A DNA stretch of 64,000 bases from a virus. The stretch lies in the IMG/VR virus record IMGVR_UViG_3300029690_000340, one strand, 5' to 3'. Position numbers and translations under genes: made by a program. The notes below the pieces were generated by a model that did not search any database, was not told the DNA's origin, and saw nothing but the letters and a program-made list of their open reading frames with translations. The number at the start of each line of letters is the position of its first letter. Position 1 is the first letter of the stretch. This document shows positions 25,232 through 57,874 of the stretch, piece after piece.

Positions 25232-25270
25232 TTTCAGGGGAAAAAACTATTTACAAGAGAGGTGCTGACT

Positions 25271-26694: not shown

Positions 26695-26985
26695 AAAAGT
26701 ATACAAAAAAATCGACATTCGCAAAAACGGTTTATTTGTATACAAAAAAGCTGTAAAAACCGTGATTTTGCAAAGGCTCCGAAGCACGGTCAGCGGAATT
26801 TTCCGTCATGCTCAGGAGTCAGCGGAGAAAGCAATCATTTTTTGGACTTTTAAGCCATCTGCTGCCATCTTGGTAACTGTCAGAGAAATCAGGCGCTTAT
26901 TTCCGCATAGGCAGAGGTCGATAACAGCCGCTGAGCGGCTCGGTAAAAGAGCCTGTAAAAGAATGAAAGAGAGGAGGTCTCAAAG

Positions 26986-28374: not shown

Positions 28375-28394
28375 CTGCATGAGGAGGATACAGC

Positions 28395-28880: not shown

Positions 28881-28973
28881 GCGAATGCGAAGCTGCGAAG
28901 CCAAAAAGTCAGCTTGTCAGAAACCGAGATATACGGTAGAATGAAGACATAGCTTTTTGGGGGGTGATTGCTT

Positions 28974-30707: not shown

Positions 30708-31101
30708 AATCCCTGAACCAACCTGTACCAAACGGGCGTCCATTCACCCAGGTATGCCAGTAGATATCGTACTCAAAGCAGACCAGCCGACAGGTAAACT
30801 CACACGCGGCGTCGTGAAGCGGATTCTCACCAACAGTCCAACACATCCACGCGGTATTAAGGTCATGCTGGAGGATGGGCAAGTCGGACGGGTCCAGCGC
30901 TTTGCCGGTCCGCAGGAATGCCGCAAGTGTAAAAACCGCATCGTTCTCCACGCTTTCTCAGACGGCTTTTGTCAGGTCTGCGGCAGGCATATCACCTGCG
31001 CTGATACTCCGGCTGATGTCCTCTGTGGATACTGCGCTACCATGTCGAACCGTTGTGTGCATTGCGGAGCAGCCTTAGAGCCGGAAGACTCTATTGAGTG
31101 A
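30697..31101 (+). CDS. YwbE-family (DUF2196) protein fused to C-terminal Cys-rich zinc-ribbon-like tail
   Basis: GVVKRILTNSPTHPRGIKVMLEDGQVGRVQRF matches the YwbE family core. Tail has CxxC x3 (CRKCKN...CQVCG...CGYC...CVHCG). Overlaps the NERD gene end by 11 nt. Confidence 0.6.
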   Translation: MTNKIPEPTCTKRASIHPGMPVDIVLKADQPTGKLTRGVVKRILTNSPTHPRGIKVMLEDGQVGRVQRFAGPQECRKCKNRIVLHAFSDGFCQVCGRHITCADTPADVLCGYCATMSNRCVHCGAALEPEDSIE

Positions 31102-31193
31102 GACGTGCAAAAGGCCGCACATGATTGAAGTTATATGGTTTGGGCAGACAGGTGGGACGTGTTCAGCGTCTCACCTGTCTGCCTCTACGCTAA

Positions 31194-31222
31194 ATTGACT
31201 CGTGAGGTGTTATGTGGTATAA
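31194..31222 (+). promoter_or_regulatory. conserved promoter (TTGACT-N17-TGGTATAAT)
   Basis: Same family as 19792, 33496, 38073, 47394. Drives flotillin. Confidence 0.55.
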
Positions 31223-31256
31223 TATATTTACAAAATAAAACTGGAGGTAATAAATA

Positions 31257-32750
31257 ATGGAAAATCTCGTGAAGCTGCTGCCTGTAATTGCAGTAGTGGC
31301 CCTTGTGGTGATTATCTTTCTTCTTGGCTATGTAAAGGCTCCGCCCGATGTGGCCTACATCATTTCCGGTATACGAAAAAGGCCCCGCGTTCTGATTGGG
31401 CGAGCGGGTATCCGAATTCCGTTTCTGGAGCGTGTAGATAAGCTCATTGTCCGGCAAATCTCCATCGACATCAAGTCGGAAGGCTATATCCCGACCAACG
31501 ACTTCATCGGCGTCGATGTGGACGCGGTTGCCAAGGTCAGAGTCAAGACGGACCCGGAAGGCATCCAGCTCGCCATGAAGAACTTTCTGAATATGCGAGA
31601 AGCGGATTTCAGCTGCGCCATCGCGGATTCTCTCCAGGGCAATATGCGCGAAATCATCGGCACCATCTCTCTCAAGGAAATCTGCAATGACCGAAAGAAA
31701 TTCGGTGACGAGGTACAGTCAAAAGCACAAACAGATATGAGTGCGCTCGGTATCGAAATCATCTCCTGCAATATTCAGCGTGTCACGGACGAAAACAGCT
31801 TAATCAACTCCCTCGGTCAGGACAATATGAGCAAAATCCAGAAGGATGCTGCCATCGCCAAAGCTGAGGCGGAGCGTGACGTGGCTATCGCTCAGGCGCA
31901 GGCGGCCAAGGCGTCTAACGATGCCAAAGTCGAGTCCGAAATGCAAATCGCTCAGAAGCTGAATGACCTCTCCATCCGCAAAGCTGAACTCAAGGTTCAG
32001 GAGGATACGAAGAAGGCCGAAGCCGATGCCGCGTATACCATCCAGCAGCAGGAACAGCAGCGCTCCATTGAGACGGCTACCGTCAATGCGCAAATCGCCA
32101 AGGCGGAACGCGAAGCGGAGCTGAAAAACAAAGAGGTCGAAGTTAAGAAGCAGTCTCTGGATGCGGAGGTCCGCGCACAGGCGGATGCCGACCTCTACCG
32201 ACGTCAGAAGGACGCGGAGGCGCAGCTTTTCGAGCGCCAACGTGAGGCGGATGCAAAGAGAGCGGAAGCCGACGCCGTAAAGTACGCCCGCGAGCAGGAA
32301 GCTGCTGGTATTGCCGCCGTCGGTGAGGCGGAAGCCAATGTCATTCGTGCCAAGGCCGTTGCTGAAGCAGAAGGTATCGACAAGAAGGCAGAAGCTATGA
32401 AGAAATACGGCGACGCGGCCATCGTTGAGATGATTATGAACGCTTTGCCGGAAATCGCCAAGAATGTCGCTGAACCTCTCAGCAAGGTGGATAAAATCAC
32501 GATGTACGGCGAAGGCAACAGCGCGAAGCTGCTGGGTGACATCATCAACGGCACCACACAGGTCACAGAGGGCCTTTCTTCCGGAATGGGGTTGGATATT
32601 AAGTCTCTTATTGCCGGAGCCATCGGCGGCAAGCTCACGGCCCAGCAGACCTCTCCTGTCATCGTCATGGACAAGCCGGACAATACGGCAGCTCCCACAC
32701 AGCCGCAGGAACCGCCTGCCAAGAATGACGCGGACGGCAAGGCTGAATAA
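31257..32750 (+). CDS. flotillin-family (SPFH/Band-7, YuaG/FloT-like) protein
   Basis: N-terminal TM helix. SPFH domain (GIRKRPRVLIGRAGIRIPFLERVDKLIVRQISIDIKSE...). Long Ala/Glu/Lys coiled-coil flotillin repeats. Confidence 0.8.
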   Translation: MENLVKLLPVIAVVALVVIIFLLGYVKAPPDVAYIISGIRKRPRVLIGRAGIRIPFLERVDKLIVRQISIDIKSEGYIPTNDFIGVDVDAVAKVRVKTDPEGIQLAMKNFLNMREADFSCAIADSLQGNMREIIGTISLKEICNDRKKFGDEVQSKAQTDMSALGIEIISCNIQRVTDENSLINSLGQDNMSKIQKDAAIAKAEAERDVAIAQAQAAKASNDAKVESEMQIAQKLNDLSIRKAELKVQEDTKKAEADAAYTIQQQEQQRSIETATVNAQIAKAEREAELKNKEVEVKKQSLDAEVRAQADADLYRRQKDAEAQLFERQREADAKRAEADAVKYAREQEAAGIAAVGEAEANVIRAKAVAEAEGIDKKAEAMKKYGDAAIVEMIMNALPEIAKNVAEPLSKVDKITMYGEGNSAKLLGDIINGTTQVTEGLSSGMGLDIKSLIAGAIGGKLTAQQTSPVIVMDKPDNTAAPTQPQEPPAKNDADGKAE

Positions 32751-32789
32751 TACATAGCTGACTGCGGCAGACCCTTCCAAACAGAACAC

Positions 32790-32822
32790 ATCACTCCCTC
32801 GACAACGGGGGAGTGATTTTTT
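32790..32822 (+). terminator. rho-independent terminator
   Basis: ATCACTCCCTCGACAACGGGGGAGTGAT hairpin + TTTTTT. Confidence 0.6.
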
Positions 32823-32923
32823 ACACATTTTGGATATTGCGCTTGACAAGCCAGAATGCCGGTGCTATATTGAAAAATACTTAGATTGCGCACTACGAAT
32901 TATTAAGGGTGGTTGAAATAAGT

Positions 32924-33463
32924 ATGATTGAACACGAGCAGAACCGCATCCGAAAGCAGCGTCAGGATTTTAAGCTGTCCCAGCGTGAATTTGCACTTAC
33001 CACCGGAATTCCTCTGGGAACAGTCCGAAACTGGGAGCAGGAGAAATGCAGCCCGCCGGAGTATCTCTATGGGATGCTGTACGAATTACTGAGGAGGAAC
33101 TCTATGTTGAATGTAAAAACGCTGAAGGTCGTAGCTTTGCTTAACGAACTTGCGGAGAAAGAAAAGAACGGTATTAGGGAATTCAAAAACGCCGACGAAG
33201 ACAACAGAGAGACTTTCCTTTTCTACGATGCCGCGTGCTGTACGCGGCGGAAGGATGGAGCGTTGCTCTACAAGGTGCCGCGCGATATGTGCATCATCGA
33301 CGAGAAAGCGAATAAGCATCACGATATCATCTCCTACTATGGAGACGACGACTACGATGTGGTGGTCGTAGATAATGGCGAAGGAGAGCTTTTTTTGGAG
33401 GTGCATTTCGCCGCCGAGGAAGAGTTCGTTGAATTCAGCAATGGGGAGTGGTACTTCGCGTGA
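32924..33463 (+). CDS. HTH (XRE-family) transcriptional regulator with C-terminal domain of unknown function
   Basis: N-terminal LSQREFALTTGIPLGTVRNWEQEK helix-turn-helix. ATG at 32924 after AAGGGTGG. Confidence 0.55.
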   Translation: MIEHEQNRIRKQRQDFKLSQREFALTTGIPLGTVRNWEQEKCSPPEYLYGMLYELLRRNSMLNVKTLKVVALLNELAEKEKNGIREFKNADEDNRETFLFYDAACCTRRKDGALLYKVPRDMCIIDEKANKHHDIISYYGDDDYDVVVVDNGEGELFLEVHFAAEEEFVEFSNGEWYFA

Positions 33464-33495
33464 ATCACGCGAAGGCCGTTTCCATACGCATTAAA

Positions 33496-33524
33496 TTGAC
33501 TTTTAAGCTAATGTGTGGTATAAT
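33496..33524 (+). promoter_or_regulatory. conserved promoter (TTGACT-N17-TGGTATAAT)
   Basis: TTGACTTTTAAGCTAATGTGTGGTATAAT. Confidence 0.55.
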
Positions 33525-33559
33525 ATAAGCATAAAGTAAACGGAGGATGTGATTTTCCA

Positions 33560-34240
33560 GTGATATGGAGCGATGTAATCCCACAGGATGTACAGGCGCT
33601 TGGAGCTGAGCTTGCCAAGCGGGCTGCCTGTGAGCGCGAAGCGGGTCGCACAATATACCCGCCGCAGGAGCAGATATTCCGTGCGTTGGAGCTTACCACG
33701 CCGGAGAAGGTGAAGGTATGCCTTGTCGGGCAAGACCCATATCACGAGGCGGGGCAGGCGAACGGGCTGTGCTTTTCAGTAAACCGTGGTGTGCTTTTCC
33801 CACCGTCGCTCAAAAACGTCTTCAAGGAACTGGTCAGTGACATTGGTTGTCCGTATCCGAAAAGTGGAGACCTGACTCACTGGGCGGAACAAGGCGTGCT
33901 CATGCTCAATACCGTACTTACAGTACAGGATGGGACCGCAAACAGCCATAGAAACTGGGGGTGGCAGAATTTCACGCAGGCGGTATTCGCGGCGTGTGCG
34001 AAGCTGCCGCAGCCGATTGTGTTCATCACATGGGGCGGACAGGCAAGAGCCTTTCTTGCCGGAATTCCAATTTCACAACTGCCTGATAAGGGTGTGGTAT
34101 TTTCAAGTCATCCAAGTCCCCTTGGGGCGCGAAAAGGAAACGATGTAGTAAAAGCATTCATCGGCAGCAGACCTTTTTCTCAAACTAACAGATTGTTGGA
34201 ACAGATGGGAAGCACACCAATTCACTGGGAGCTTCCATAG
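33560..34240 (+). CDS. ung: uracil-DNA glycosylase, family 1
   Basis: Catalytic water-activating loop GQDPYH (LVGQDPYHEAGQANGLCFSV). C-terminal HPSPLGA motif. Confidence 0.85.
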   Translation: MIWSDVIPQDVQALGAELAKRAACEREAGRTIYPPQEQIFRALELTTPEKVKVCLVGQDPYHEAGQANGLCFSVNRGVLFPPSLKNVFKELVSDIGCPYPKSGDLTHWAEQGVLMLNTVLTVQDGTANSHRNWGWQNFTQAVFAACAKLPQPIVFITWGGQARAFLAGIPISQLPDKGVVFSSHPSPLGARKGNDVVKAFIGSRPFSQTNRLLEQMGSTPIHWELP

Positions 34241-34260
34241 CCGGACAGGAGGATATCATT

Positions 34261-34791
34261 TTGAACTTTCCGATTATCATGTCCCTTTGGCTTATGCGGC
34301 AGAGGCTTGATGACGATACAGATACGGACATGACAAACGCCAGCGCACTCGAATCAGCTGCATTTGCGCTTTGCTGTATTGTCGCGGCCGCGATTTTGTG
34401 CGTTGCATCGGCCTGCGCGTGGGATTTACTTTCAGACTTTTACTTTTTTCTGAATGATTCTATGGCACTTCTTGCGGCGTATATTATCTTTCTCTTTGTT
34501 TCCGTTATTGGAAGCATTGTCTTCGGCGTTTGCGCGGTTTGTGAACTCGTGCATCTCTACCGAGTGCAAACCCCTGAGAGGAAGGTAATTGTGCAGAGGG
34601 CTTTATTTCTGCTTTCGGCTACAGCTGCACTCGTTTGCATTACAGCTTCTAACAGCAAAGAATCAAACAAAACGGAACCAGACACTCTCACGTTTCAGGC
34701 AGGAGCGCCAATTATTATTTCGAGTGAGGGAGCCTATTCCGTCATTGAGTGCTCAGACGGAGAAATCATCATAAGAAAAGTGGCTGATTAA
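34261..34791 (+). CDS. hypothetical membrane protein
   Basis: TTG start after ACAGGAGGA. Three to four TM helices. Confidence 0.35.
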   Translation: MNFPIIMSLWLMRQRLDDDTDTDMTNASALESAAFALCCIVAAAILCVASACAWDLLSDFYFFLNDSMALLAAYIIFLFVSVIGSIVFGVCAVCELVHLYRVQTPERKVIVQRALFLLSATAALVCITASNSKESNKTEPDTLTFQAGAPIIISSEGAYSVIECSDGEIIIRKVAD

Positions 34792-34817
34792 CTTTCCGCG
34801 AAGAGGAGGACGATACT

Positions 34818-35261
34818 ATGCAGGACAAACTCTGGCTCTCTACCATTAGTGTCGGGCGCGAACTCGTGCTCATGCCGTATGGCAATTTTGCAAGGACCGC
34901 TGGCGGCAGAACGCCAATCACAAGAACCGTTACAAAAGTCGGCAAGAAGTATTTCTACATCGGCAACGACGCCTTCAGCCGCAAGACTGGTGAATACATC
35001 GACCGGAATGAATGCAATGGCGGCTATGTGCTCTATCCGGATATTGCAGCCTATGAGGAAGCGGTTCGCACCGCAGACGAGCGCTCTGCCATCAGGAAAA
35101 TCGTCGATGCGGATTTTTACGGATATGACCCGTTCAGTTGCTGGCGAACATACACTGTCTCGGATGCGGCTGTCCATGAGATATACCGCATTCTGGTTGA
35201 GTGCGGTGCTATCAAAACCAGTACGGAGGAGGAAAAGCCTGATGGCAAAAGCGCAGAATAG
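34818..35261 (+). CDS. hypothetical protein
   Basis: Strong RBS AGAGGAGGA. Confidence 0.35.
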   Translation: MQDKLWLSTISVGRELVLMPYGNFARTAGGRTPITRTVTKVGKKYFYIGNDAFSRKTGEYIDRNECNGGYVLYPDIAAYEEAVRTADERSAIRKIVDADFYGYDPFSCWRTYTVSDAAVHEIYRILVECGAIKTSTEEEKPDGKSAE

Positions 35262-35454
35262 TCTTCCTCCGGAGGAGACACGATACCCTGGTGTGTCCAT
35301 CACCGCACGGGACGGAGCACACTACGCCATCACACAGAGGCGTGACGATGGCCATACACCAACCTTCACGCTCTGGAGCGTTAGCGAGGACGGCGGCTAC
35401 GCCAAACTCAAAAGCAGCACAGACTACGACGCCTTGGGTAGTCTGATTTTCTGA
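35242..35454 (+). CDS. small hypothetical protein (70 aa)
   Basis: ATG after GAGGAGGAAAAG inside the end of the previous gene. In frame with listed ORF 34849..35454. Confidence 0.3.
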   Translation: MAKAQNSLPPEETRYPGVSITARDGAHYAITQRRDDGHTPTFTLWSVSEDGGYAKLKSSTDYDALGSLIF

Positions 35455-35474
35455 AGCACAGGGAGGGACCGACA

Positions 35475-37706
35475 ATGCAGGAACCTATTTACAACAACGG
35501 CACCGTAAAGGTGGCGAAGGAGGGCGTGAGCGCCTATTTGGCGTGGTATCGCACCCTCTCCATGGCTGACGCAAAAGAGATTTCCGACGTCTGTTCAAGA
35601 CTGACGAAAGAGGCGGCAAAGAACGCGGGCGTTGACCTCTACGATATTGGCCGCAACACCTTCAGCTTTTTCGGCCATCAGACGGAAGAGAATTGGGAGA
35701 AGCAGAGAGCATCGGTTTCCGAAAAAATGCTTCAGTTCTTCCACTTCGCGGAGGAGTTTGAACAGCCTATCCGCGCAGCTCTCTGGTCGAAGGAAGCAGC
35801 GTTTTTATACATCGGCAATCCGCAGAAGGGCATCATTGTCATGGAGCCTGAGAAGTACATGACCTATACGCCGGACAGAGACTACTCCGACCTGACGCCT
35901 GCACAGGCGATGGCGGAGCTTGGCTCGGCGGCCGTCTGCGATATGAGCATCATTCCGGTGGGTGCGGGAACCGCGCTGTCTCAGAAAACGGTCAAGGAAC
36001 AGCTTAGCACTCACCAGACCGAAATCGAGAAGCTGAAAAGTGAGATGAAGGATGTCGAAGGCGCAAAGACCGGCGAACTTGCAGAACTGACAGCGCAAAT
36101 TGAGGCCCTCAAGCAGGAGCTTTGGCAGAAGAAAGATAAGCTCATGGCGGAACTGAACCGCAAAATGGAGGAGATGGAAGAGAAAAAGGAACAGCTGGAG
36201 GGACAAATCTACCTGCTGGACTCCCAAATCTATGCCATCCGCTGTTATGCCGGAGAAGTCGTCAATTTCACCCGCATCCGCTCCGGCAAGAACGCGCCGG
36301 ACACGGAGCCTATCGTCGTGCATCAGAAACTTCGCTTCCTCGACGAGGATTTAGGGAGGCTCGCGTCCCTGTATGAAATTCAGTGGAATGAGCTGGATAT
36401 GTTTGAGAGCTTCCTCAAGCACTCTCCATACGCGCTGGACACCTTCGCACCGAACGAACGCTGCATCATGCTCGTGCGCCTCAGCCGCACCGGAAAATCC
36501 ATCGGACGCGCAATGGACAATGAGGGCAGACCGTACCACAATATGCTCGACCGCTACGACTACTACCACGGCAAGACCGTTGGCATTATCATCCGAAACG
36601 GTGAAAATCTCTACCTTGGCTGGACGGATGAAAACCGCGTCCATATCAGTGACGACCTGATTCTCACCAGAGCGCAGGTCGTTACAGAGACCGTGCCGGA
36701 GGAGCCGAAGGAATTCATCTTTGAGTCAGAGCGTAAACGGTATGTGAAAGAGCAGAGAGAACAGCGCAAGCGAATTCTGGACGGCCTTGTATCCCGCACC
36801 TTCGTCTACAACATCCTGCAAGGCGTCGTGGACCACTCCGCGCTGCTCCCGCTGCCGAAGGGCGTTACGCTTGCCAAACAGTCGGAGTATGTCATCTTCT
36901 CCGTTGCGGATAAGTGGATTTCAGACAATAAGTACGGCTCCTTTACGGATATCATCGCACGCTGCAATCAGAAGGTTCAGCAGGGCGACGTACTGCTCAC
37001 GACCCAGCATCTTGTCCCTGAAACGGACAGACCCGCTTTCTATCCACGGGCATGGGAGAATGTGCGTGGACGCGGCGAGCGCAATCGCACGCATGACTGC
37101 TCTGTGGATGATTGTACGCTATATAAAGCGAATCTGGTCGAATATGACCCGCCGATTGAGATGGTGGAATTCCAGCGCCGTTCCTGCCAGGGCTGGATGG
37201 ATGGTCCCTTCAAGGCGAAAGCGAAGTATTTCGACGAAAAAGAAGGGGACGTCATTCTCCGGCACTATCAGACAGAGCCTGAGCGCCATGTGTTTGTGTC
37301 CGCTGAAAAGAGCGGCGAATGGAATTGGAACCGTACAAGCGCCGCAAATGCCCGTGCGAACTTCGAGCTATACGATGGCGAGTATATCAACCTGACTTAC
37401 CTCAATTCGGTCTGGCTGGAATATGTGGTCACAAACAAGTCTCTCGGCGACTGGCGCATCGGCGGCATTGCCGTGGACTATGCCTACGCCATCCGCTATC
37501 TCAAGACAGCATTGGATTTCATCCGAAAAAGGGAAGCGAAGGAAAAAATGCTTCTGGACGCCGTGGACACCAGTATCTGCCAGGACGCGGAATGGCCGGT
37601 AAAGCTGTCCGAGTGGAAGTTACGCGCCGGTGTCCGAACCATTACGGAATACCAGGCCAAACGCTTCGCGGCGGCGCTTGGAAAGGAGGCGCAGGCCCAT
37701 GGTTAA
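35475..37706 (+). CDS. large hypothetical protein with central coiled coil
   Basis: 743 aa. RBS GGGAGGGA. Coiled-coil segment EIEKLKSEMKDVEGAKTGELAELTAQIEALKQELWQKKDKLMAELNRKMEEMEEKKEQLEGQ. Confidence 0.4.
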   Translation: MQEPIYNNGTVKVAKEGVSAYLAWYRTLSMADAKEISDVCSRLTKEAAKNAGVDLYDIGRNTFSFFGHQTEENWEKQRASVSEKMLQFFHFAEEFEQPIRAALWSKEAAFLYIGNPQKGIIVMEPEKYMTYTPDRDYSDLTPAQAMAELGSAAVCDMSIIPVGAGTALSQKTVKEQLSTHQTEIEKLKSEMKDVEGAKTGELAELTAQIEALKQELWQKKDKLMAELNRKMEEMEEKKEQLEGQIYLLDSQIYAIRCYAGEVVNFTRIRSGKNAPDTEPIVVHQKLRFLDEDLGRLASLYEIQWNELDMFESFLKHSPYALDTFAPNERCIMLVRLSRTGKSIGRAMDNEGRPYHNMLDRYDYYHGKTVGIIIRNGENLYLGWTDENRVHISDDLILTRAQVVTETVPEEPKEFIFESERKRYVKEQREQRKRILDGLVSRTFVYNILQGVVDHSALLPLPKGVTLAKQSEYVIFSVADKWISDNKYGSFTDIIARCNQKVQQGDVLLTTQHLVPETDRPAFYPRAWENVRGRGERNRTHDCSVDDCTLYKANLVEYDPPIEMVEFQRRSCQGWMDGPFKAKAKYFDEKEGDVILRHYQTEPERHVFVSAEKSGEWNWNRTSAANARANFELYDGEYINLTYLNSVWLEYVVTNKSLGDWRIGGIAVDYAYAIRYLKTALDFIRKREAKEKMLLDAVDTSICQDAEWPVKLSEWKLRAGVRTITEYQAKRFAAALGKEAQAHG

Positions 37707-37896
37707 TTCTCCTTGTCTCGACTGCCCAGACCGCACTCCCGGATGCCATAAGCCGGAGGCTTGTTCTGCATGGGCGGAGTTTCAGAAGGCGCTGACGGCG
37801 GAAAAGAATATGATTGACGAGGCTCAGAAACCGCTTAAAGCATTCGACGAATACCAAATTGCACGACGCAAGCGGCATCATCATTCGCAGCGGTAA
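37699..37896 (+). CDS. small Cys-rich (zinc-ribbon-like) protein, 65 aa
   Basis: ATG 9 nt after GAAAGGAGG. CLDCP...C...C motif. Overlaps the stop of the previous gene. Confidence 0.3.
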   Translation: MVNSPCLDCPDRTPGCHKPEACSAWAEFQKALTAEKNMIDEAQKPLKAFDEYQIARRKRHHHSQR

Positions 37897-38072
37897 CTAT
37901 TTGCACACAAAATTCTATGTGATATACTGTGTTTGAAAACCCAAAGCTACCAGCCTGTCACAGACGACAATATGTACGCAGAGCCTGTCAGCGGCTATAT
38001 TGAGAAGCAGTAGACGTCAGCCAGCAAGCCAAGCGCTCCTTGTCTTGGGGCGCTTAGCTTTTCTGAAACGAA

Positions 38073-38101
38073 TTGACAATCAAGCTAATGTGTGGTATAA
38101 T
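38073..38101 (+). promoter_or_regulatory. conserved promoter (TTGACA-N17-TGGTATAAT)
   Basis: TTGACAATCAAGCTAATGTGTGGTATAAT. Shows that the listed ORF start at 38000 is upstream of the real transcription start. Confidence 0.55.
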
Positions 38102-38131
38102 GTAAATATAAAAGTTCGGGGGTGCGCTGCA

Positions 38132-40000
38132 TTGGATTACCACACTTTTTGCCAAAAATTCAATATTTGCGGACTCAACGAACAGCAGGAAGCCGCTGTC
38201 CGGCGCGTGAATGGAGCAACGCTGCTCCTTGCTGTGCCGGGAAGCGGAAAAACTACGGTCATCGTAGCGAGAACCGGCTATCTCATGTATGTCGCAGGCG
38301 TAAAGCCGGAGAATATCCTGACCATCACTTATACCCGCGCTGCGGCAAAGGAAATGAAGGAGCGTTTCATAAAGAAGTTTGCCCCGGAACGGATACCGGC
38401 ATTCTCCACTATCAACAGCTTCTGCCTGTCCGTCATCAATACCTGTGCGAAAGAGAAGTACATTCATGTACCAAAGCTGGTGCCGAACAACGAGAGCATC
38501 GTCCGTGCTATTGCGGCTAAGATGCTTCCGGAGTATCCCAGTGATTCACAGGTGCGGTCTCTCGCGCAGAAGGTGTGCAAAGTAAAAAACAAGCTCATGA
38601 CCTTTCAGGAAATTGAGGCCATCGAAGAAAACAGCCTTGATTTTTCTGCTTTTTACCAGGCGTACAAGCTCTACATGAGCGAGCATGATTTGATGGATTT
38701 TGATGACCAGCTTCTCATGGCAAATGATTTGCTGGATGAATACCCGGACATCTTACAGCGGGCGCATGAGAAGTTCCGCTATGTGAGTGTGGACGAGGCG
38801 CAGGACACCTCGTATGTCCAGCACCTTATCGTCCAGAAGCTGGTTGGGCGGAATGGCAATATCTTCATGGTCGGAGACGAAGACCAGAGCATCTACGGCT
38901 TCCGAGGCGCGTATCCTGCCGCACTGCTGGACTTCCAGAGCAACTATAACGAACCCTGTATCCTGCGTATGGAGACCAATTACCGCAGCGACAGGAACAT
39001 CGTCTCAGCGGCCAATCAGTTCATCAAACTGAATACGAGACGACTCGACAAGAATATGCGTGCCCAGTCCCAAAAGGACGGAGCCATCGTCGTGACCTGC
39101 ATCGACCGCATGGAACAGCAGGCGGAGCTTCTGCTGGAGCGCATCCGGAATCAGAAGCCGGATGAATCCCTGGCAATTCTGTATCGGAATAACGACTCTG
39201 CCATCCCTCTTATCAATCTGCTCCAGATGAACGGCATTCAGGTTCAAACCAGAGATGCGACGGGGACCTTCATGACGAACTACGTCATTCGGGACCTGCT
39301 CGACTTTATGCTTCTGGCCCTGAACCCTGCTGACACCACCGCTTTTGGGCATCTGTACTACAAAATGGGCCTTTACATGAAGGGCGTCACCGCCAAGCGC
39401 ATTATCGAGGCGGTTGAAGAAGGGGAGTGCCGGAACGTATTCAGCGCCGCGATGAAATTTGCAGGCGGCAAGGGATACGCATGGAAAATAGAATGCCTGC
39501 CGAGGGACTTTTCCGACCTTGCGAAGAAGAAGCCTGCTGAGGCTATCGACTACATTCTGTTCATGCTCGACTATTGGAGCAACTGGCTGACGAAGAAAAT
39601 TGACGCCGGTGCTTCCGAGCAGTTTATCAGTCTGCGTATCAGCATTTTGAAAATGGTAGCGGAGAAGTATTCGACCATTCCGGACTTCCTCGCCGCACTC
39701 AAAAACATCACGGAATATAAGGGCTGCGAGGATTCCAATGTGACCGTTACCACCATCCATTCCAGTAAAGGTCTGGAGTTCGATAAGGTCATCTTAATCG
39801 ACATGGTATCTGGCATCATTCCCGGTGACAGCGATGACCGCGACGCGGAGGATGACGAAGAGGATGCGCGAGCGTTCTACGTCGGAGCGACGCGGGCACG
39901 GCATGAGCTGGAAATCATCACCTGCCGGAAGATGTACCAAGAAAAGCTGGAAGTATCTGAATTTGTGCCGCGCCTGCTGGCGGCGGGGAAAGGAGACTGA
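38132..40000 (+). CDS. UvrD/PcrA/Rep-family superfamily-1 DNA helicase
   Basis: Likely TTG start at 38132 downstream of the promoter. Walker A AVPGSGKTTVIVARTGYLM. Motif II FRYVSVDEAQDTSYVQ. Motif VI-like VGATRARHELEI near the C-terminus. Confidence 0.75.
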   Translation: MDYHTFCQKFNICGLNEQQEAAVRRVNGATLLLAVPGSGKTTVIVARTGYLMYVAGVKPENILTITYTRAAAKEMKERFIKKFAPERIPAFSTINSFCLSVINTCAKEKYIHVPKLVPNNESIVRAIAAKMLPEYPSDSQVRSLAQKVCKVKNKLMTFQEIEAIEENSLDFSAFYQAYKLYMSEHDLMDFDDQLLMANDLLDEYPDILQRAHEKFRYVSVDEAQDTSYVQHLIVQKLVGRNGNIFMVGDEDQSIYGFRGAYPAALLDFQSNYNEPCILRMETNYRSDRNIVSAANQFIKLNTRRLDKNMRAQSQKDGAIVVTCIDRMEQQAELLLERIRNQKPDESLAILYRNNDSAIPLINLLQMNGIQVQTRDATGTFMTNYVIRDLLDFMLLALNPADTTAFGHLYYKMGLYMKGVTAKRIIEAVEEGECRNVFSAAMKFAGGKGYAWKIECLPRDFSDLAKKKPAEAIDYILFMLDYWSNWLTKKIDAGASEQFISLRISILKMVAEKYSTIPDFLAALKNITEYKGCEDSNVTVTTIHSSKGLEFDKVILIDMVSGIIPGDSDDRDAEDDEEDARAFYVGATRARHELEIITCRKMYQEKLEVSEFVPRLLAAGKGD

Positions 40001-40002
40001 AA

Positions 40003-40374
40003 ATGCCGGATGCAAAGAGCAGCACGGTCGTAGTGCAGCGCGGCGTCTACACGGTGGCCAGAAAAACTGTGGACACGGAGGGCAACACCATCCGGGAAAC
40101 ACCGCCGCAATGGCGGGAAGACATCACCGGCGGCTCTGTTATCGTCTGTCCCATCAATTCGGAGACAGACGAACCGCTGTGCGACGCGGAATTGTTTTCC
40201 GCCCTATCACAGGATGTGCTTCTCGACAGTCTCGGAAAGGCGCTGGGCTTCCACTGGCCGAACTTCGCCGCCATCTTTGAGAAGATGCGGGAAAGCGAGG
40301 TGGATTTCTGCCAGTTCTGCGGCGAGGACCTGCAAAAGTGTATGCTTTGCCCCTTCAATTCCTACAACAATTAG
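40003..40374 (+). CDS. hypothetical protein
   Basis: ATG 2 nt after the helicase stop. C-terminal CQFCGEDLQKCMLCP cysteine cluster. Confidence 0.35.
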   Translation: MPDAKSSTVVVQRGVYTVARKTVDTEGNTIRETPPQWREDITGGSVIVCPINSETDEPLCDAELFSALSQDVLLDSLGKALGFHWPNFAAIFEKMRESEVDFCQFCGEDLQKCMLCPFNSYNN

Positions 40375-40382
40375 TCTGCACT

Positions 40383-40714
40383 CCCGCCGAATGGCGGGCG
40401 GGTGAGCCGGAAACTCCGACCCAGCCTCCTGTCATTTGGTGTGGCTTATGACCCGCAAGGGAAGTAAGCCTCGTCAATAAGCCTCAGCCGCAAGGCTACG
40501 ATATGCCGGAATCCATAGGCACCGGCGGATGCTCCACAAGTCCGCCGCTCTGCGGGTGCGTATTAAACATCTCTGAGGGGAAGGAGAAGTGTGCGCACCA
40601 TTAAACCCGGTATATCCTTGGCGATGTGGACCACAGTAACGCCGCGTGAGCGGTAAGTGCTGATTTACCAAATCTTTGGTTTTCTCAAGTAGGGGAATTC
40701 TCGTCTTTTTAATC
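40383..40714 (+). ncRNA. tracrRNA/omegaRNA-like structured element, orphan copy (about 90% identical to 41745..42076)
   Basis: No ORF. GC-rich hairpins (CCCGCCGAATGGCGGG, CGGCGGATGCTCCACAAGTCCGCCG). Anti-repeat CCTCCTGTCATTTGGTGTGGC at 40425-40445 is complementary to downstream repeats. Ends with CCAAATCTTTGG hairpin + TTTTCT. Confidence 0.4.
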
Positions 40715-40797
40715 GTTGATGTGCCACAGCAAATGACAGGGAGTATCATCTGGCCCGCAGGATTGACGTCCCACACCAAATGACAGGAATCGGTAAA
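40715..40797 (+). repeat. two degenerate 36-nt array-type repeats separated by an 11-nt spacer
   Basis: GTTGATGTGCCACAGCAAATGACAGGGAGTATCATC / ATTGACGTCCCACACCAAATGACAGGAATCGGTAAA. Share the (G/A)TTGA(C/T)GT...CAAATGACAGG core with the array at 42097. Confidence 0.4.
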
Positions 40798-40817
40798 TTT
40801 TTCAGGAGGAATGAACA

Positions 40818-41420
40818 ATGACTTTTTTCAGTTTTGCTCTGGAATTAGGGCGGCTCATGGTGCCGCAGCTCGCGGTACTCATTGTGCTATGTGCATTGTG
40901 CGATTTCGCCGTGGGCAAGCTCAATGCGCCGAGACCGCCGGTGCTTGCGGTTCTGTGGCTATTCCTACTCATTGAAACACTTAACGTCGGCAGCCGCGTG
41001 ACGCTGTTCTTCCAGAACTGGGAGTTCCAGATTCCCAAAGTCTCTCTTGGCATCCAGCTTGTGCTGCTGGCAGTCCTGGTGGGCTTGCCGGCTGCGAAGT
41101 ATTTCGCGGGGAAGAAGTTCGCCAACTGCGGTGCTGTGAGTAAGGCGCTCGCTTTATTCTTTCATACCGTTCTTTCCCTCGCAGCGGCGATTGTACTGCT
41201 GGCAAGCCTGTATTCTATAGTTATGGCACGAGCGGATTTCCCTGCGGATACTGCCAATGCAGTCTGCTTCGTTGTGGTTGTATTTGCGCTGTACCAGCCC
41301 TTACTTATGCACTTTGGTGGGAACAGGCTGGACGACATCCTGTCGCTCATTCGGCAGGCCAATCGCAACGCGGTGTCTGTCCATCAGAATGATACGAACC
41401 ATGTCGGCGCAGGTAAGTAA
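40818..41420 (+). CDS. hypothetical polytopic membrane protein
   Basis: RBS AGGAGGAATG. Five to six TM helices. Confidence 0.4.
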   Translation: MTFFSFALELGRLMVPQLAVLIVLCALCDFAVGKLNAPRPPVLAVLWLFLLIETLNVGSRVTLFFQNWEFQIPKVSLGIQLVLLAVLVGLPAAKYFAGKKFANCGAVSKALALFFHTVLSLAAAIVLLASLYSIVMARADFPADTANAVCFVVVVFALYQPLLMHFGGNRLDDILSLIRQANRNAVSVHQNDTNHVGAGK

Positions 41421-41739
41421 ACACGCGAGGAAGCGTACAAAACAGCGTGCTGGCCTCGGCAAAAGAGCAGCCGTGCGCAATGCACAGAAAGCCTTTGACC
41501 TTGGCGTGAAGCACTCGGAGACCAATGGACGCTTAAACAAGTATCTCACCGCCATCTACTTCACTAACAAAACCATCAACAACCTGCGCATCTATCACCG
41601 GCACGTCTACCTGTTTGCCGGAGATGTCCTTGTCACCGTGCTCAACCTGCCGAACAATTTGTGGCCGCAGGCTGATGCCTGCGAGAAGCGCAAGCGGGCA
41701 AGTTTGGAACGCCCTGTCTGTCAGGATAGTATTTCTTAG
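41401..41739 (+). CDS. possible small basic protein (112 aa), weakly supported
   Basis: In-frame ATG within listed ORF 41257..41739. K/R-rich N-terminus (KHARKRTKQRAGLGKRAAVR). No RBS. Confidence 0.2.
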   Translation: MSAQVSKHARKRTKQRAGLGKRAAVRNAQKAFDLGVKHSETNGRLNKYLTAIYFTNKTINNLRIYHRHVYLFAGDVLVTVLNLPNNLWPQADACEKRKRASLERPVCQDSIS

Positions 41740-41744
41740 TTTTT

Positions 41745-42076
41745 CCCGCCGAATGGCGGGTGGGTGCGCCGGAAGCTCCGGCTCAGCCTCCTGTCATTTG
41801 GTGTGGCTTATGACCCGCAAGGAGAGTAAGCCTCGTCAATAAGCCTCAGCCGCAAGGCTACGATATGCCGGAATACATAGGCACCGGCGGATACTCCACA
41901 AGTCCGCCGCTCTGCGGGTGCGTATTAAACATCTCTGAGGGGAAGGAGAAGTGTGCGTACCATCAAACCCGGTATATCCTTGGCGATGTGGACCACAGTA
42001 ACGCCGCGTGAGCGGTAAGTGCTGATTTACCAATTTTTTGGTTTGCCTAAGTAGGAGAATCTTCGTATTTTTAAGC
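41745..42076 (+). ncRNA. tracrRNA/omegaRNA-like structured element upstream of the array and iscB
   Basis: Anti-repeat CCTCCTGTCATTTGGTGTGGC at 41787-41807 has 12-18 contiguous nt complementary to the ...CCACCAAATGACAGG... portion of each array repeat. Many hairpins. About 90% identical to 40383..40714, with several paired substitutions. Confidence 0.45.
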
Positions 42077-42096
42077 GTTGAAATGCCAACTACCTG

Positions 42097-42330
42097 GTTG
42101 ACGTACCCCGCCAAATGACAGGTAGCTATACCCAAAGCGACCAGCCGATGCGCCCATTGTAGTTGACGTATCCCACCAAATGACAGGTAGCTATACCAGT
42201 TGAGCATGGCAATGATGGGGATTTGCGAGTTGATGTCCCTAACCAAATGACAGGTAACTATACCCAAATGGCTTGGTTCTCACAAGTTCTTGTGGTTGAC
42301 GTCCCCCACCAAATGACAAGAAGCTGCACC
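42097..42330 (+). CRISPR. CRISPR-like mini-array: four 36-nt repeats, three spacers (29, 31, 30 nt)
   Basis: R1 42097-42132 GTTGACGTACCCCGCCAAATGACAGGTAGCTATACC. R2 42162-42197. R3 42229-42264. R4 42295-42330 (degenerate terminal repeat). Spacers CAAAGCGACCAGCCGATGCGCCCATTGTA / AGTTGAGCATGGCAATGATGGGGATTTGCGA / CAAATGGCTTGGTTCTCACAAGTTCTTGTG. Repeats are 83-94% identical, not perfect. Confidence 0.55.
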
Positions 42331-42352: not shown

Positions 42353-43747
42353 ATGCCAGTATGTGTTTTAAGTGCAAACGGTGAACGGCTGATGCCGACC
42401 GAAAATTACGGCAAAGTGCGCCATCTGCTGAAGGATGGCCGCGCTGTAATTGCGAAGCGGAACCCGTTCACCATCCAGCTGACCTACGAGACCAGTACCT
42501 ATACCCAGCCCATCGAATTGTGCGTCGGCACCGGATATGAGCATATCGGCGTCAGCATTAAGGCAAAGGCAAAAGAGGTCGTATCGCAGCAATATGATTT
42601 GCTCACGAACGAGCGCTCCCGCCATGACGACTGCCGAGCGTACCGCCGGACGCGCAGAAACCGCCTGCGGTATCGGGCTGCACGGTTCAATAACCGTGTA
42701 TCCAGCAAAATGCCCGGTTGGATTGCTCCGTCCCTGGATAACAAGGTGGAGCGGCACCTGGATATTATCTCCCGCTATCTATCTGTCATGCCTGTCAAGG
42801 ATGTCTTTATCAAGGCCGCAACATACGATACACAGCTCCTTGCGGCGCTGGAGGCAGGGGAGCCTGTCCCGCAGGGTAAGGACTATCAGCATGGGCCACA
42901 GTACGGATACGATACACTGCGGGAAGCGGTCTTTGAACGGGACCACTATACCTGTGTGTATTGCAAGAGAGGTCTGAAAGACGGCGCTATCCTTCATGTC
43001 CATCACGCCTACTACTGGAAGGGTCTGCATGGGAACAGCATGAGGGAGCTTGCGACCTGCTGCGAGAAGTGCAACACACCTGCCAATCACAAGGAGGGCG
43101 GGAAGCTGTGGGGCTTCGATAAGCCTCTGCGGAAATATACCGGCGAAGCGTTTATGAATAGCGTGCGCTGGATTCTCTACCAGCGTGCGATGGCTCGCTT
43201 CCAGGGTGCTGCGGAAGTACACATGACCTATGGCGTCATCTCCAAGCGCGTCCGCACCAACCTCGGCCTCCCGTATTCCTGCGCTACGGATGCCTACTGC
43301 ATGGGCGAGCTGCGTCCGGAAGCCAGATGCGAAACAGAGGTCTTCCAGAAATACAGGCGAAACAACAGAGTCCTATCCAAATTCTATGACGCCAAATATT
43401 ACGACACACGGGAAAAGGGAGTTATCCGTTCTGGCAACGAGTTGTCCTCCGGCAGGACGAACCGCAATCATAACCTTGACGGCGAAAATCTGCGCCGGTT
43501 CCGTGGCTGTAAGAAGTCAAAGGGCCGAACCTCGACCAGAAAGCAGAGATATGCCATGCAGCCGGGAGATATCGTGGTCTACGGCAATCGCAAATACGTT
43601 TCCAAGGGCTGCTCCAGCTACGGCAAGGCATTAAGCCTACTCACGGATGGAAAGCCGCTTATGGTCAGCATGAAGAAAATCCAGCTTGTTCGTCATAAGG
43701 GCGGCTGGGTGCGGCTTCCCCATGCAGCAGCCGAGGCAAAAAAATAA
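42353..43747 (+). CDS. iscB: IscB-family RNA-guided nuclease homologue (PLMP domain, split RuvC, arginine-rich bridge helix, HNH, C-terminal TI domain); RuvC catalytic residues apparently substituted
   Basis: N-terminus MPVCVLSANGERLMPTENYGKVRHLLKDGRAVIAKRNPFTIQLTYE matches the PLMP domain. RRTRRNRLRYRAARFNNR bridge helix. HNH CVYCKRG...HVHHAYYWKGLHGNSMRELATCCEKCNTPANHK. Expected RuvC-I D is G59 (LCVGTG vs LGIDPG). RuvC-II E is K154 (VFIKAATYD). RuvC-III motif reads ATDAYC where H.DAY is expected, so the His is Thr and the Asp is retained. Confidence 0.75.
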   Translation: MPVCVLSANGERLMPTENYGKVRHLLKDGRAVIAKRNPFTIQLTYETSTYTQPIELCVGTGYEHIGVSIKAKAKEVVSQQYDLLTNERSRHDDCRAYRRTRRNRLRYRAARFNNRVSSKMPGWIAPSLDNKVERHLDIISRYLSVMPVKDVFIKAATYDTQLLAALEAGEPVPQGKDYQHGPQYGYDTLREAVFERDHYTCVYCKRGLKDGAILHVHHAYYWKGLHGNSMRELATCCEKCNTPANHKEGGKLWGFDKPLRKYTGEAFMNSVRWILYQRAMARFQGAAEVHMTYGVISKRVRTNLGLPYSCATDAYCMGELRPEARCETEVFQKYRRNNRVLSKFYDAKYYDTREKGVIRSGNELSSGRTNRNHNLDGENLRRFRGCKKSKGRTSTRKQRYAMQPGDIVVYGNRKYVSKGCSSYGKALSLLTDGKPLMVSMKKIQLVRHKGGWVRLPHAAAEAKK

Positions 43748-57833: not shown

Positions 57834-57837
57834 ACCT

Positions 57838-57869: not shown

Positions 57870-57874
57870 TTTTT

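What the first reader, a model, noticed from the sequence alone, without database searches (positions are those of the whole stretch)
40383..40817. Second, orphan copy of the tracr/omegaRNA-like element with two degenerate repeats, placed upstream of a membrane-protein gene instead of a nuclease
Region 40383-40714 is about 90% identical to 41745-42076 and includes the identical anti-repeat at 40425-40445. It is followed by two 36-nt repeat-like units separated by only 11 nt (40715-40797), then directly by the RBS and ATG of a polytopic membrane protein (40818). Several differences between the two copies look compensatory, which argues for selection on RNA structure: GCCGGAAACTCCGAC vs GCCGGAAGCTCCGGC and GCGCACCATTAAACCC vs GCGTACCATCAAACCC. 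Three readings are possible: a relic of an iscB deletion or replacement, a trans-acting guide or scaffold RNA gene, or a co-opted 5' leader regulating the membrane protein.
Basis: seen in the sequence. Interest (0 to 1): 0.7.

Follow-up and report, generated by a model that had tools for sequence, protein, structure and literature searches.

The report
Orphan second copy of IscB guide-RNA module
A mobile element of a human-gut bacterium carries two near-identical copies of the scaffold RNA that guides a small Cas9-like enzyme (IscB): one sits in front of the enzyme gene with a CRISPR-like array, and the other, intact but with a collapsed array, sits in front of an unrelated membrane-protein gene, most likely a duplication that still supplies scaffold RNA.

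Summary
Window 40382-40714 is a 94-96% copy of 41744-42076, and both copies score above the Rfam threshold for HEARO, the IscB omegaRNA. Both are tracr-type: the 36-nt repeats supply the missing 5' strands in trans. Copy 2 is followed by a strain-variable array and iscB. Copy 1 is followed by a degenerate first repeat, 11 nt and a terminal repeat, then a membrane-protein gene.

At least 15 assemblies keep this arrangement, including an Oscillospiraceae isolate. Two long contigs lack copy 1, and four lose it in larger deletions. Copy 1 is not decaying. Variants at paired HEARO-core sites keep pairing and are shared with copy 2, which points to gene conversion.

The 11-nt stretch holds two of the three variable sites in the 136 nt after the core (40682-40817), and no target was found. 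This argues against a hard-wired guide.

Best reading: a duplicated, still competent guide-RNA module, probably a second trans-acting scaffold source. A neutral by-product is the main rival.

This IscB clade alone has lost three RuvC catalytic residues while HNH is intact and the protein is under purifying selection. Its nearest relatives are canonical IscBs without arrays.

The parts
40383..40398 (+). 5' pseudo-repeat hairpin of copy 1 (CCCGCC-GAAT-GGCGGG). It resembles the repeat core CCCGCCAAATGACAGG with three A-to-G changes. The duplicated unit starts here, 8 nt after the stop codon of ORF 40003-40374.
   Evidence: Read from the sequence. The homologous L004 segment was listed as a 61% member of the repeat family. 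Folds as a hairpin.
40382..40714 (+). Copy 1 of the tracr-type omegaRNA (the orphan). The HEARO core is at 40417-40636, followed by 3' hairpins and a tail.
   Evidence: Rfam HEARO 100.8 bits against a gathering score of 83. 94-96% identical to copy 2. Fold z-score -4.5.
40423..40445 (+). Anti-repeat of copy 1. It pairs with the middle of the 36-nt repeats, with 18/18 complementarity to 40771-40788 in R2'.
   Evidence: Inverted repeats I5-I12. Cofold ddG of -18 to -30 kcal/mol, against -4.6 +/- 2.5 for shuffled repeats.
40472..40478 (+). CGUCAAU, the 3' strand of HEARO helix P1. Its partner, (G/A)UUGACG, is the first 7 nt of every repeat, so P1 forms in trans.
   Evidence: The cmscan alignment shows the 5' P1 strand missing. 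Cofold structures show the 7-bp helix for all repeats.
40715..40750 (+). R1', a degenerate leader-proximal repeat. It is homologous to the first repeat that directly abuts copy 2 in other strains (L002, L033, L040).
40751..40761 (+). The 11-nt remnant between the repeats (TGGCCCGCAGG). It is polymorphic at 40756 and 40757.
   Evidence: No second copy in the window.
40762..40797 (+). R2', a terminal-type repeat. It is the best partner of the tracr region of all repeats (ddG -29.5).
40818..41420 (+). 200-aa polytopic membrane protein (RBS at 40804-40809). It has no family match, and homologues occur only in this element clade.
41401..41739 (+). 112-aa basic protein (PHROG 16724, function unknown). 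Its stop codon lies 5 nt before copy 2.
41744..42076 (+). Copy 2 of the tracr-type omegaRNA, with its anti-repeat at 41785-41807.
   Evidence: Rfam HEARO 91.8 bits..
42077..42088 (+). Truncated remnant of the first repeat after copy 2 (GTTGAAATGCCA).
   Evidence: Alignment A1 and comparison with L002/L033.
42097..42330 (+). CRISPR-like array of four 36-nt repeats and three spacers of 29-31 nt. Spacer content differs between strains.
42353..43747 (+). iscB, 464 aa. The HNH motif is intact. RuvC catalytic residues are replaced (D59G, E154K, H310C).
   Evidence: Pfam RRXRR. NCBIfam IscB equivalog 244 bits. PDB IscB matches. Alignments.

Best explanation
Window 40382-40797 is a complete second copy of the guide-RNA module of the neighbouring array-associated IscB.

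The module has five parts: a 5' pseudo-repeat hairpin; a tracr-type omegaRNA, which is a HEARO core lacking the 5' strands of helix P1 and the adjoining hairpin; the degenerate leader-proximal repeat; an 11-nt spacer remnant; and a terminal repeat. These missing strands are supplied in trans by each repeat.

The copy arose by duplication or recombination inside a repeat-rich, rearrangement-prone locus (inferred). As a result, the module that normally precedes iscB now also precedes a two-gene cassette: a membrane protein and a PHROG-16724 protein.

The copy is not decaying (shown). It is kept like copy 2 through sequence exchange between the copies and constraint on RNA structure (inferred).

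The most likely role is that it is transcribed with the cassette and processed into a second supply of scaffold (tracr/omega) RNA, which the single IscB loads in trans (inferred). The 11-nt stretch is a linker left by array collapse, not a selected guide (inferred).

The IscB it would serve has a dead RuvC site and an intact HNH site. The system therefore probably nicks or merely binds its targets.
For: Both copies exceed the HEARO gathering score.

Repeat-tracr pairing, consisting of a 7-bp P1 helix plus a long duplex, is predicted for every repeat. It is strongest for R2': ddG -29.5, against -27.5 for array repeats and -4.6 +/- 2.5 for shuffled sequence.

The layout is conserved in 15 assemblies, including isolate L056.

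Among 33 full copies, all 8 variable paired positions of the HEARO core keep pairing. One is a true C-G to T-A compensatory pair. The variants occur in both copies.

Nucleotide diversity is 0.0115 for the copy-1 core and 0.0066 for the tail plus mini-array. This is no higher than copy 2 (0.0196) and 3-8 times lower than the adjacent membrane gene (0.039) and small gene (0.085).

Only 3 sites vary in 40682-40817, and 2 of them lie in the 11-mer. My binomial estimate for that clustering is p about 0.02.

A 9-nt pseudo-spacer in the functional array of L002 shows that such collapses happen in this system.

R1' is the homologue of the first repeat abutting copy 2 in L002, L033 and L040.

IscB is under purifying selection, with pN/pS of 0.16.
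Against: There are no expression data, and no convincing promoter or terminator around either copy.

The unit starts 5-8 nt after the upstream stop codons, so transcription must come from upstream.

Copy 1 is absent in L033 and L040. It is lost, together with 10-18 kb, in L012-L015. It is therefore dispensable in some lineages.

Low diversity could reflect linkage to the very conserved uvrD-geneA block, or gene conversion from a selected copy 2. Power to detect copy-1-specific decay is low, since only four copy-1-only singletons were seen.

Copy 1 carries a C-A mismatch in its 5' hairpin in 12 of 14 genomes.

Its own two repeats would consume as much tracr RNA as the copy supplies.
Confidence: 0.45

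Rival explanations
1. Neutral by-product. The orphan is simply the left arm of a 330-bp direct repeat created when the membrane/small-gene cassette was duplicated into or captured by the omegaRNA-array locus. It has no function of its own and looks intact only because gene conversion from the selected copy 2 keeps overwriting it.
For: Variants are shared between copies across genomes, and tail haplotypes are shuffled between copy 1 and copy 2. Copy 1 is polymorphic for presence or absence: it is absent in L033 and L040, and deleted in L012-L015. Contigs with the topology expected from recombination between the two copies exist: L034 and L045 lack the cassette, and L047 has the reciprocal junction. 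The collapsed spacer resembles the 9-nt collapse in L002.
Against: The arrangement is the majority state in at least 15 assemblies, even though a 330-bp direct repeat should promote loss. No disruptive change was seen in 14 copies. The mini-array repeats are invariant while the linker varies. R2' is the best tracr partner of all repeats.
Confidence: 0.3
2. Cis-acting leader. The omegaRNA plus mini-array acts as the 5' leader of the membrane-protein operon. IscB binding, or RNase III cleavage at the repeat/anti-repeat duplex, then couples cassette expression to the IscB system, in the same way that the same module precedes iscB itself.
For: The last repeat lies 20 nt before the membrane-gene ATG and 22 nt before the iscB ATG. 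In the minimum-free-energy fold, the anti-repeat pairs with R2' in cis just upstream of the RBS. No terminator lies between the module and the ORF.
Against: L033 and L040 keep the cassette with its RBS but lack the omegaRNA, so the leader is not required. There is no experimental precedent for such control by an omegaRNA that I could find. The cassette itself is truncated in L012-L015.
Confidence: 0.12
3. Hard-wired guide. The transcript is a natural single-transcript guide, with tracr and crRNA in cis, whose 16 nt before R2' (UCAUCUGGCCCGCAGG) direct the RuvC-dead IscB to one fixed target. This would resemble Francisella scaRNA, the long tracrRNA form of S. pyogenes, or TldR guide RNAs.
For: R2' is perfectly complementary to the anti-repeat (18/18) and to the P1 strand (7/7). 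IscB has lost its RuvC catalytic residues, as expected for a binder or nickase. The mini-array is fixed while the real array turns over.
Against: The 11-mer has two SNPs at positions -6 and -5 from the repeat, which would be the seed region, in 3 of 15 genomes. There is no second match in the window with up to 3 mismatches in 19 nt. The only 1-mismatch 11-mer hit, at 42865, is at chance level. The 15 non-self 16-mer hits in IMG/VR are in my own estimate about what chance would give, and 7 of them fall in one podovirus portal-gene motif from unrelated contigs. L050 has a variant without R1' and the 11-mer, although that contig has low coverage.
Confidence: 0.08

Closest known systems
CRISPR-associated IscB systems (Altae-Tran et al. 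2021, as described in PMC12660989 for DelIscB and in PMC10734277)
   Same: An IscB ORF is preceded by a non-coding RNA that contains repeats, spacers and an anti-repeat, so guide and scaffold are split like crRNA and tracrRNA. No adaptation genes were seen next to it. The association arose on small independent branches of the IscB tree.
   Different: Here the nearest sampled relatives (55-59% identity) are canonical single-omegaRNA IscBs without arrays. The nuclease has lost three RuvC catalytic residues. The whole RNA module is present twice, once without a nuclease gene. I could not obtain the DelIscB sequence to test relatedness.
HEARO / omegaRNA copies not next to an IscB ORF (Rfam RF02033; stand-alone omegaRNAs, from my own knowledge of Weinberg 2010 and Altae-Tran 2021)
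   Same: A structured IscB scaffold RNA that scores as HEARO but has no adjacent iscB, and is presumed to act in trans or to be a transposon remnant.
   Different: This orphan is the split, tracr-type form with its own collapsed repeat array. It lies 1.36 kb from its twin and is fused to the RBS of a cargo gene, rather than being a dispersed insertion-sequence end.
Type II tracrRNA, including the long tracrRNA form and Francisella scaRNA (from my own knowledge: Workman 2021; Ratner 2019)
   Same: Anti-repeat/repeat pairing. A degenerate repeat unit sits next to a short guide-like stretch of 11 nt. Regulation rather than cleavage is a possible role.
   Different: No partially matching target was found, and the 11-mer is polymorphic in the presumed seed. 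The protein is IscB, not Cas9.
Phage-encoded RuvC-dead, HNH-active Cas9 with its own tracrRNA, the 'biomimicry anti-CRISPR' of PMC10910872; the same paper reports an IscB with inactive RuvC and active HNH in a Cas12-linked locus
   Same: A mobile-element-encoded effector of the Cas9/IscB lineage with dead RuvC and intact HNH, accompanied by tracr-like RNA.
   Different: That Cas9 has no array, and its tracrRNA matches host repeats. Here there is a strain-variable array. A scan of 185,579 species genomes for the repeat found only the element itself.
TldR, the nuclease-dead TnpB-derived RNA-guided repressors (PMC10705468)
   Same: An OMEGA-family protein with an inactivated RuvC, carried on a mobile element, with a dedicated guide RNA.
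   Different: TldR belongs to a different protein family (TnpB), uses a single fixed guide with a known promoter target, and has no HNH domain and no array.

Membership tests
HEARO / IscB omegaRNA (Rfam RF02033) | Covariance-model score at or above the curated gathering score (83 bits) | tested here: met
   Copy 1 scores 100.8 bits and copy 2 scores 91.8 bits.
HEARO / IscB omegaRNA (Rfam RF02033) | Helix P1 and the first hairpin formed in cis, with the guide at the 5' end of the same RNA | tested here: not met
   The 5' P1 strand is missing in the cmscan alignment. It is supplied by the first 7 nt of each repeat. Canonical relatives L010, L057-L059 and the second element in L001 have it in cis.
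HEARO / IscB omegaRNA (Rfam RF02033) | Located immediately upstream of an iscB ORF | tested here: not met
   This is met for copy 2 (iscB at 42353). It is not met for the finding itself, because copy 1 is followed by a membrane-protein ORF.
IscB RNA-guided nuclease | Sequence membership (NCBIfam NF040563 equivalog; Pfam RRXRR; similarity to solved IscB structures) | tested here: met
   244 bits against a cut-off of 175. RRXRR E-value 7e-41. PDB IscB chains match at E-value 1e-29 to 1e-30.
IscB RNA-guided nuclease | Intact RuvC catalytic residues (D, E, H, D) | tested here: not met
   D59G, E154K and H310C, with D313 kept. The same holds in all 21 intact clade members. Between 112 and 114 of 118 homologues keep D, E and H.
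IscB RNA-guided nuclease | Intact HNH motif | tested here: met
   HVHH...CEKCN...NH is conserved. H217, H218 and N245 are invariant or nearly so in 118 homologues.
CRISPR array | Three or more near-identical direct repeats separated by unique spacers of similar length | tested here: met
   This is met for 42097-42330, with four 36-nt repeats and spacers of 29-31 nt. It is not met by the orphan's two repeats with 11 nt between them.
CRISPR array | Spacer content varies between related genomes | tested here: met
   About 12 distinct spacers, with arrays of 1 to 8 spacers across strains. The orphan mini-array is fixed.
CRISPR array | Adaptation genes (cas1/cas2) in the locus, and identifiable protospacers | tested here: inconclusive
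   No Cas domain appeared among about 30 ORFs scanned with Pfam, but the window was not scanned exhaustively. Three spacers had no protospacer in IMG/VR, and none matched in the window.
tracrRNA-like RNA | Anti-repeat complementary to the array repeats, encoded next to the array | tested here: met
   Inverted repeats I2-I12. Cofold ddG of -18 to -30 kcal/mol against -4.6 for shuffled sequence.
tracrRNA-like RNA | Processing of the repeat/anti-repeat duplex (RNase III) and loading into the effector | not testable with these tools
   This needs RNA-seq or RNA co-purification.
Natural short-guide regulators (scaRNA, long tracrRNA) | A conserved guide with a partially matching target next to a PAM/TAM at a promoter | tested here: not met
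   The guide is not conserved: SNPs at 40756 and 40757. No target was found in the window. Only 64 kb of an element of at least 330 kb, and no host genome, could be searched.
Decoy tracrRNA / 'biomimicry' anti-CRISPR | A host genome carries arrays whose repeats match the element's anti-repeat | tested here: not met
   An exact-pattern scan of GTDB species genomes hit only the element itself in one Oscillospiraceae isolate. Diverged host repeats would be missed.
IS200/IS605 transposon end | TnpA, left-end and right-end hairpins, and target-site preference | not tested
   I only noted that other IS200/605-type insertions (TnpB in L014, a second iscB in L001) occur in this element population.

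The most novel reading that the evidence does not exclude
The orphan module is a natural one-transcript guide, with tracr-type omegaRNA and crRNA in cis. It would program a RuvC-dead, HNH-only IscB with a fixed guide, or couple expression of the downstream membrane-protein operon to IscB. That would make it an RNA-guided regulatory circuit born from a very recent, lineage-specific conversion of a transposon IscB into a CRISPR-like system on a gut conjugative element.
Probability: 0.12. Interest if true: 0.8.

Novelty: new variant of a known kind. Interest (0 to 1): 0.55.

Why it matters
Array-associated IscBs are regarded as snapshots of how Cas9 with tracrRNA and crRNA arose from transposon omegaRNA systems.

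This locus offers an unusually young and well-sampled example. Its closest sampled relatives are still canonical, and dozens of strain variants show array turnover, array collapse, module duplication and deletion. The nuclease has become HNH-only while staying under purifying selection.

The orphan copy shows that the split guide-RNA module can be duplicated and uncoupled from its nuclease gene. That is the step needed for trans-acting tracr genes and for regulatory offshoots such as scaRNA-like RNAs.

A cultured Oscillospiraceae isolate carries the locus, so the open questions can be tested directly.

Tried and rejected
1. Chance or assembly artefact: rejected. The 300-nt repeat is 96% identical and recurs in long contigs and in an isolate.

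2. A third copy in the window: none found. Rfam at E<=1 over the whole window gives only the two HEARO hits. The 12-mer anti-repeat match at 26275 lies inside a coding gene and lacks any HEARO context.

3. A self or regulatory target of the 11/16/19-nt stretch: nothing in the window beyond a chance-level 1-mismatch hit at 42865.

4. Targets in IMG/VR: there were 15 non-self 16-mer hits, about what I estimate from chance. Seven lie in a conserved podovirus portal motif (NNMGISSGPQV) on unrelated contigs. I judged these uninformative.

5. Protospacers for three real spacers: none in IMG/VR. I therefore could not derive a TAM.

6. Host arrays with the same repeat (decoy hypothesis): none found.

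7. L007 from the anti-repeat scan was a chance hit in a tail gene.

8. Phage and plasmid databases hold no close relative.

9. Promoter and terminator scans were at background level.

10. Direction of evolution, insertion versus deletion of copy 1, could not be settled from the L033/L040 junctions.

11. L034, L045, L047 and L050 may be genuine recombinants between the copies, or assembly paths through the repeat. These are low-coverage contigs, so I did not rely on them.

12. The Altae-Tran 2021 paper could not be retrieved.

Full report
**Observation**

The region is as described. The repeat finder reports 40382-40681 and 41744-42043 as a 300-nt direct repeat at 96% identity, 1362 nt apart. 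blastn gives 94% over 331 nt. Both copies match Rfam HEARO (RF02033), the RNA now called the IscB omegaRNA. They score 100.8 and 91.8 bits against a gathering score of 83, and nothing else in the 64-kb window matches HEARO even at E<=1.

Copy 2 is followed by four 36-nt repeats with spacers of 29-31 nt, then a 464-aa ORF at 42353-43747. That ORF is an IscB by three measures: Pfam RRXRR, NCBIfam IscB equivalog at 244 bits against a cut-off of 175, and solved IscB structures at E-value 1e-29 to 1e-30.

Copy 1 is followed by two repeat-family members at 40715-40750 and 40762-40797, separated by the 11 nt TGGCCCGCAGG. An AGGAGG and the ATG of a 200-aa protein with about five hydrophobic segments come next.

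**Anatomy**

In the cmscan alignment both copies lack the 5' strand of helix P1, and the first hairpin is replaced by the anti-repeat.

The missing strands are in the repeats. The first 7 nt of every repeat, (G/A)UUGACG, pair with CGUCAAU at 40472-40478. The middle of the repeat pairs with the anti-repeat at 40423-40445. Cofolding each repeat with the tracr region reproduces this three-way junction. The ddG is -27.4 to -27.8 kcal/mol for three of the four array repeats, -18.4 for R3, -19.9 for R1', -29.5 for R2', and -4.6 +/- 2.5 for shuffled repeats.

The RNA is therefore a tracr-type omegaRNA, and the repeats are crRNA handles with the guide on their 5' side. This is the known architecture of CRISPR-associated IscB (PMC12660989; PMC10734277).

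Each copy starts with CCCGCC-GAAU-GGCGGG, 5-8 nt after the stop codon of the preceding ORF. This hairpin is the repeat core with three A-to-G changes.

R1' is the homologue of the degenerate first repeat that abuts copy 2 in other strains (L002, L033, L040), and R2' has a terminal-repeat type tail. The orphan is thus a whole module whose array has collapsed to first repeat, 11 nt and last repeat. A 9-nt pseudo-spacer in the otherwise normal array of L002 shows that such collapses occur here.

**Context**

The element is common in human-gut metagenomes, on contigs of 245-332 kb. It also occurs on a 570-kb contig of the isolate Oscillospiraceae bacterium CM18GR_63.

IMG/VR lists related contigs as viral. 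However, the window encodes a type IV coupling protein, a VirB4-like ATPase and a CHAP/lysozyme hydrolase, besides a UvrD helicase and sigma factors. I therefore call it a large mobile element, conjugative-plasmid-like or ICE-like, rather than a phage.

**Population variation**

The orphan layout is found in 15 assemblies. The arrays next to iscB differ between strains, with about 12 distinct spacers and 1-8 spacers per array. The orphan mini-array is fixed.

Copy 1 is not universal:
- L033 (a 154-kb contig) and L040 (58 kb) lack it and keep the cassette. The junction reads CCCGCCGAATAA|ATGACAGGAATCAG. In L040 this junction holds 81 nt of the 5' end of a different, canonical omegaRNA.
- L012/L013 delete window 31618-41230, and L014/L015 delete 22890-41163. 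Both deletions remove copy 1 but keep copy 2 and iscB.
- L034 and L045 (geneA-omegaRNA-array-iscB without the cassette) and L047 (small gene-omegaRNA-mini-array-membrane gene) have the topologies expected from recombination between the two copies. They are low-coverage contigs and could equally be assembly paths through the repeat.

**Is copy 1 decaying?**

I aligned 33 full copies, 14 of copy 1 and 19 of copy 2, and mapped them on the HEARO structure. All eight variable paired positions of the core keep pairing:
- C to U opposite G at 40526 and 40546.
- U to C opposite G at 40561 and 40596.
- G to A opposite U at 40591.
- One genuine compensatory C-G to U-A change at 40488/40495.

The remaining variants are in loops. 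These variants occur in both copies, and the 3' tail haplotypes are shuffled between copy 1 and copy 2 in different genomes. Together this indicates gene conversion.

Position 40596 is a G-C/G-U polymorphism, and 40602 is unpaired. The A at 40419 gives a C-A mismatch in the copy-1 5' hairpin, although an alternative GGGU/ACCC pairing would tolerate it.

Nucleotide diversity by segment:

| Segment | Diversity (pi) |
|---|---|
| Copy-1 core | 0.0115 |
| Copy-1 tail plus mini-array | 0.0066 |
| Copy 2 | 0.0196 |
| Membrane gene | 0.039 |
| Small gene | 0.085 |
| Upstream geneA / uvrD block | 0.012 / 0.0025 |

Copy 1 shows no sign of decay. Linkage to the conserved upstream block and gene conversion both cloud the inference of selection.

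**Is the 11-mer a guide?**

In 15 assemblies only three sites vary in the 136 nt after the core. Two of them, 40756 and 40757, lie in the 11-mer, at -6 and -5 from the repeat, where a seed would be. The third is 40773 in R2'. Two of three variable sites falling in 11 of 136 nt has a probability of about 0.02 under uniformity (my calculation).

No other match exists in the window for the 19-mer with up to 3 mismatches. The single 1-mismatch 11-mer hit, at 42865 inside iscB, is at chance level: 1.3 are expected.

The 16-mer has 15 non-self hits in IMG/VR, close to what I estimate from chance. Seven fall in one portal-protein motif of unrelated podovirus contigs. I conclude that the 11 nt are a linker.

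**The nuclease**

Alignment with solved IscBs and with homologues shows D59G (RuvC-I), E154K (RuvC-II) and H310C (RuvC-III). D313 and the HNH motif are intact. All 21 intact clade members share this pattern. Among the 118 best homologues of at least 400 aa, 113, 112 and 114 keep D, E and H respectively, and the exceptions are essentially this clade.

Pairwise pN/pS within the clade is 0.16. The protein is therefore maintained, probably as an HNH-only nickase or a binder.

The nearest sampled relatives are 55-59% identical: L010, L057, L058 and L059. Each has one canonical full-length HEARO and no repeats. The split RNA, the array, RuvC loss and the duplication are therefore all specific to this lineage.

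An IscB with inactive RuvC and active HNH, and a phage RuvC-dead Cas9 with its own tracrRNA, have been reported in other contexts (PMC10910872). A scan of GTDB species genomes for the repeat found only the element itself. There is thus no evidence for a host array that the tracr copies could decoy.

**Verdict**

The orphan is a duplicated, structurally competent copy of a tracr-type omegaRNA module with a collapsed array. It sits in a locus that rearranges through its many repeats.

- Confidence 0.45: it is co-transcribed with the downstream cassette and yields a second trans-acting scaffold RNA for the single IscB.
- Confidence 0.3: it is a neutral by-product kept intact by gene conversion.
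- Confidence 0.12: it is a cis-regulatory leader.
- Confidence 0.08: it is a hard-wired guide.

None of these can be settled without transcript and RNP data. The cultured isolate makes those experiments possible.

As a kind, it is a new variant of CRISPR-associated IscB, with an RNA module that is duplicated and uncoupled from the nuclease, and a nuclease with dead RuvC.

Noticed in passing
window 42353-43747 (aa 59, 154, 310): The IscB of this clade has lost three RuvC catalytic residues (D to G, E to K, H to C) but keeps the HNH motif and evolves under purifying selection (pN/pS 0.16). Between 112 and 114 of 118 homologues keep the catalytic residues.
   Followed up: yes
L001 6592-6626 and 6685-6719, with iscB start at about 6968: One strain has a second, canonical IscB element inserted after the sigma-factor gene, at about window 48562. 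The first 35 nt of its omegaRNA are duplicated 93 nt upstream, giving a two-repeat proto-array in front of a cis omegaRNA (HEARO 124 bits).
   Followed up: partly
L040 382-462; L033 about 775: Two long contigs lack the orphan omegaRNA. At exactly the same junction, L040 carries 81 nt of the 5' end of the canonical omegaRNA type seen in L001. I could not work out how this fragment got there.
   Followed up: partly
L012/L013 (window 31618-41230 deleted); L014/L015 (window 22890-41163 deleted): There are two independent large deletions, each seen in two samples. Both end inside the membrane-protein gene, 67 nt apart, and both leave copy 2, the array and iscB intact.
   Followed up: partly
window 17428-19704, 22739-25231, 16094-17419: A type IV coupling protein, a VirB4-like ATPase and a CHAP/lysozyme hydrolase are present. 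The element looks conjugative, although IMG/VR lists related contigs as viral. It sits on a 570-kb contig of isolate Oscillospiraceae bacterium CM18GR_63 (L056).
   Followed up: partly
L011 8001-8828; L040; L005: Some genomes carry a broken iscB: a 167-bp deletion in the 332-kb contig L011, a frameshift in L040, and one stop codon in L005. The omegaRNA copies remain intact in these genomes.
   Followed up: no
L014 780-1901 (inserted at window 19769/19770): A TnpB (IS605 OrfB) gene is inserted in one strain, so IS200/605-type elements are active in this element population.
   Followed up: no
L018, L019, L022, L026, L027, L030, L031: The 16-mer TCATCTGGCCCGCAGG occurs exactly in a conserved portal-protein motif (NNMGISSGPQV) of several unrelated podovirus contigs. 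The overall hit count is close to what I estimate from chance.
   Followed up: partly
window 26275-26286: An exact 12-nt match to the anti-repeat core (CCTGTCATTTGG) lies inside a coding gene, with no HEARO context.
   Followed up: partly
window 57797-57878: A sub-threshold Rfam match to suhB/mmgR sRNA scores 37.2 bits against a gathering score of 41 (E-value 5e-4).
   Followed up: no
window 40818-41739: The membrane gene (pi 0.039) and the small gene (pi 0.085) are several times more diverse between strains than the flanking RNA modules and iscB. The membrane protein has homologues only in this element clade.
   Followed up: partly
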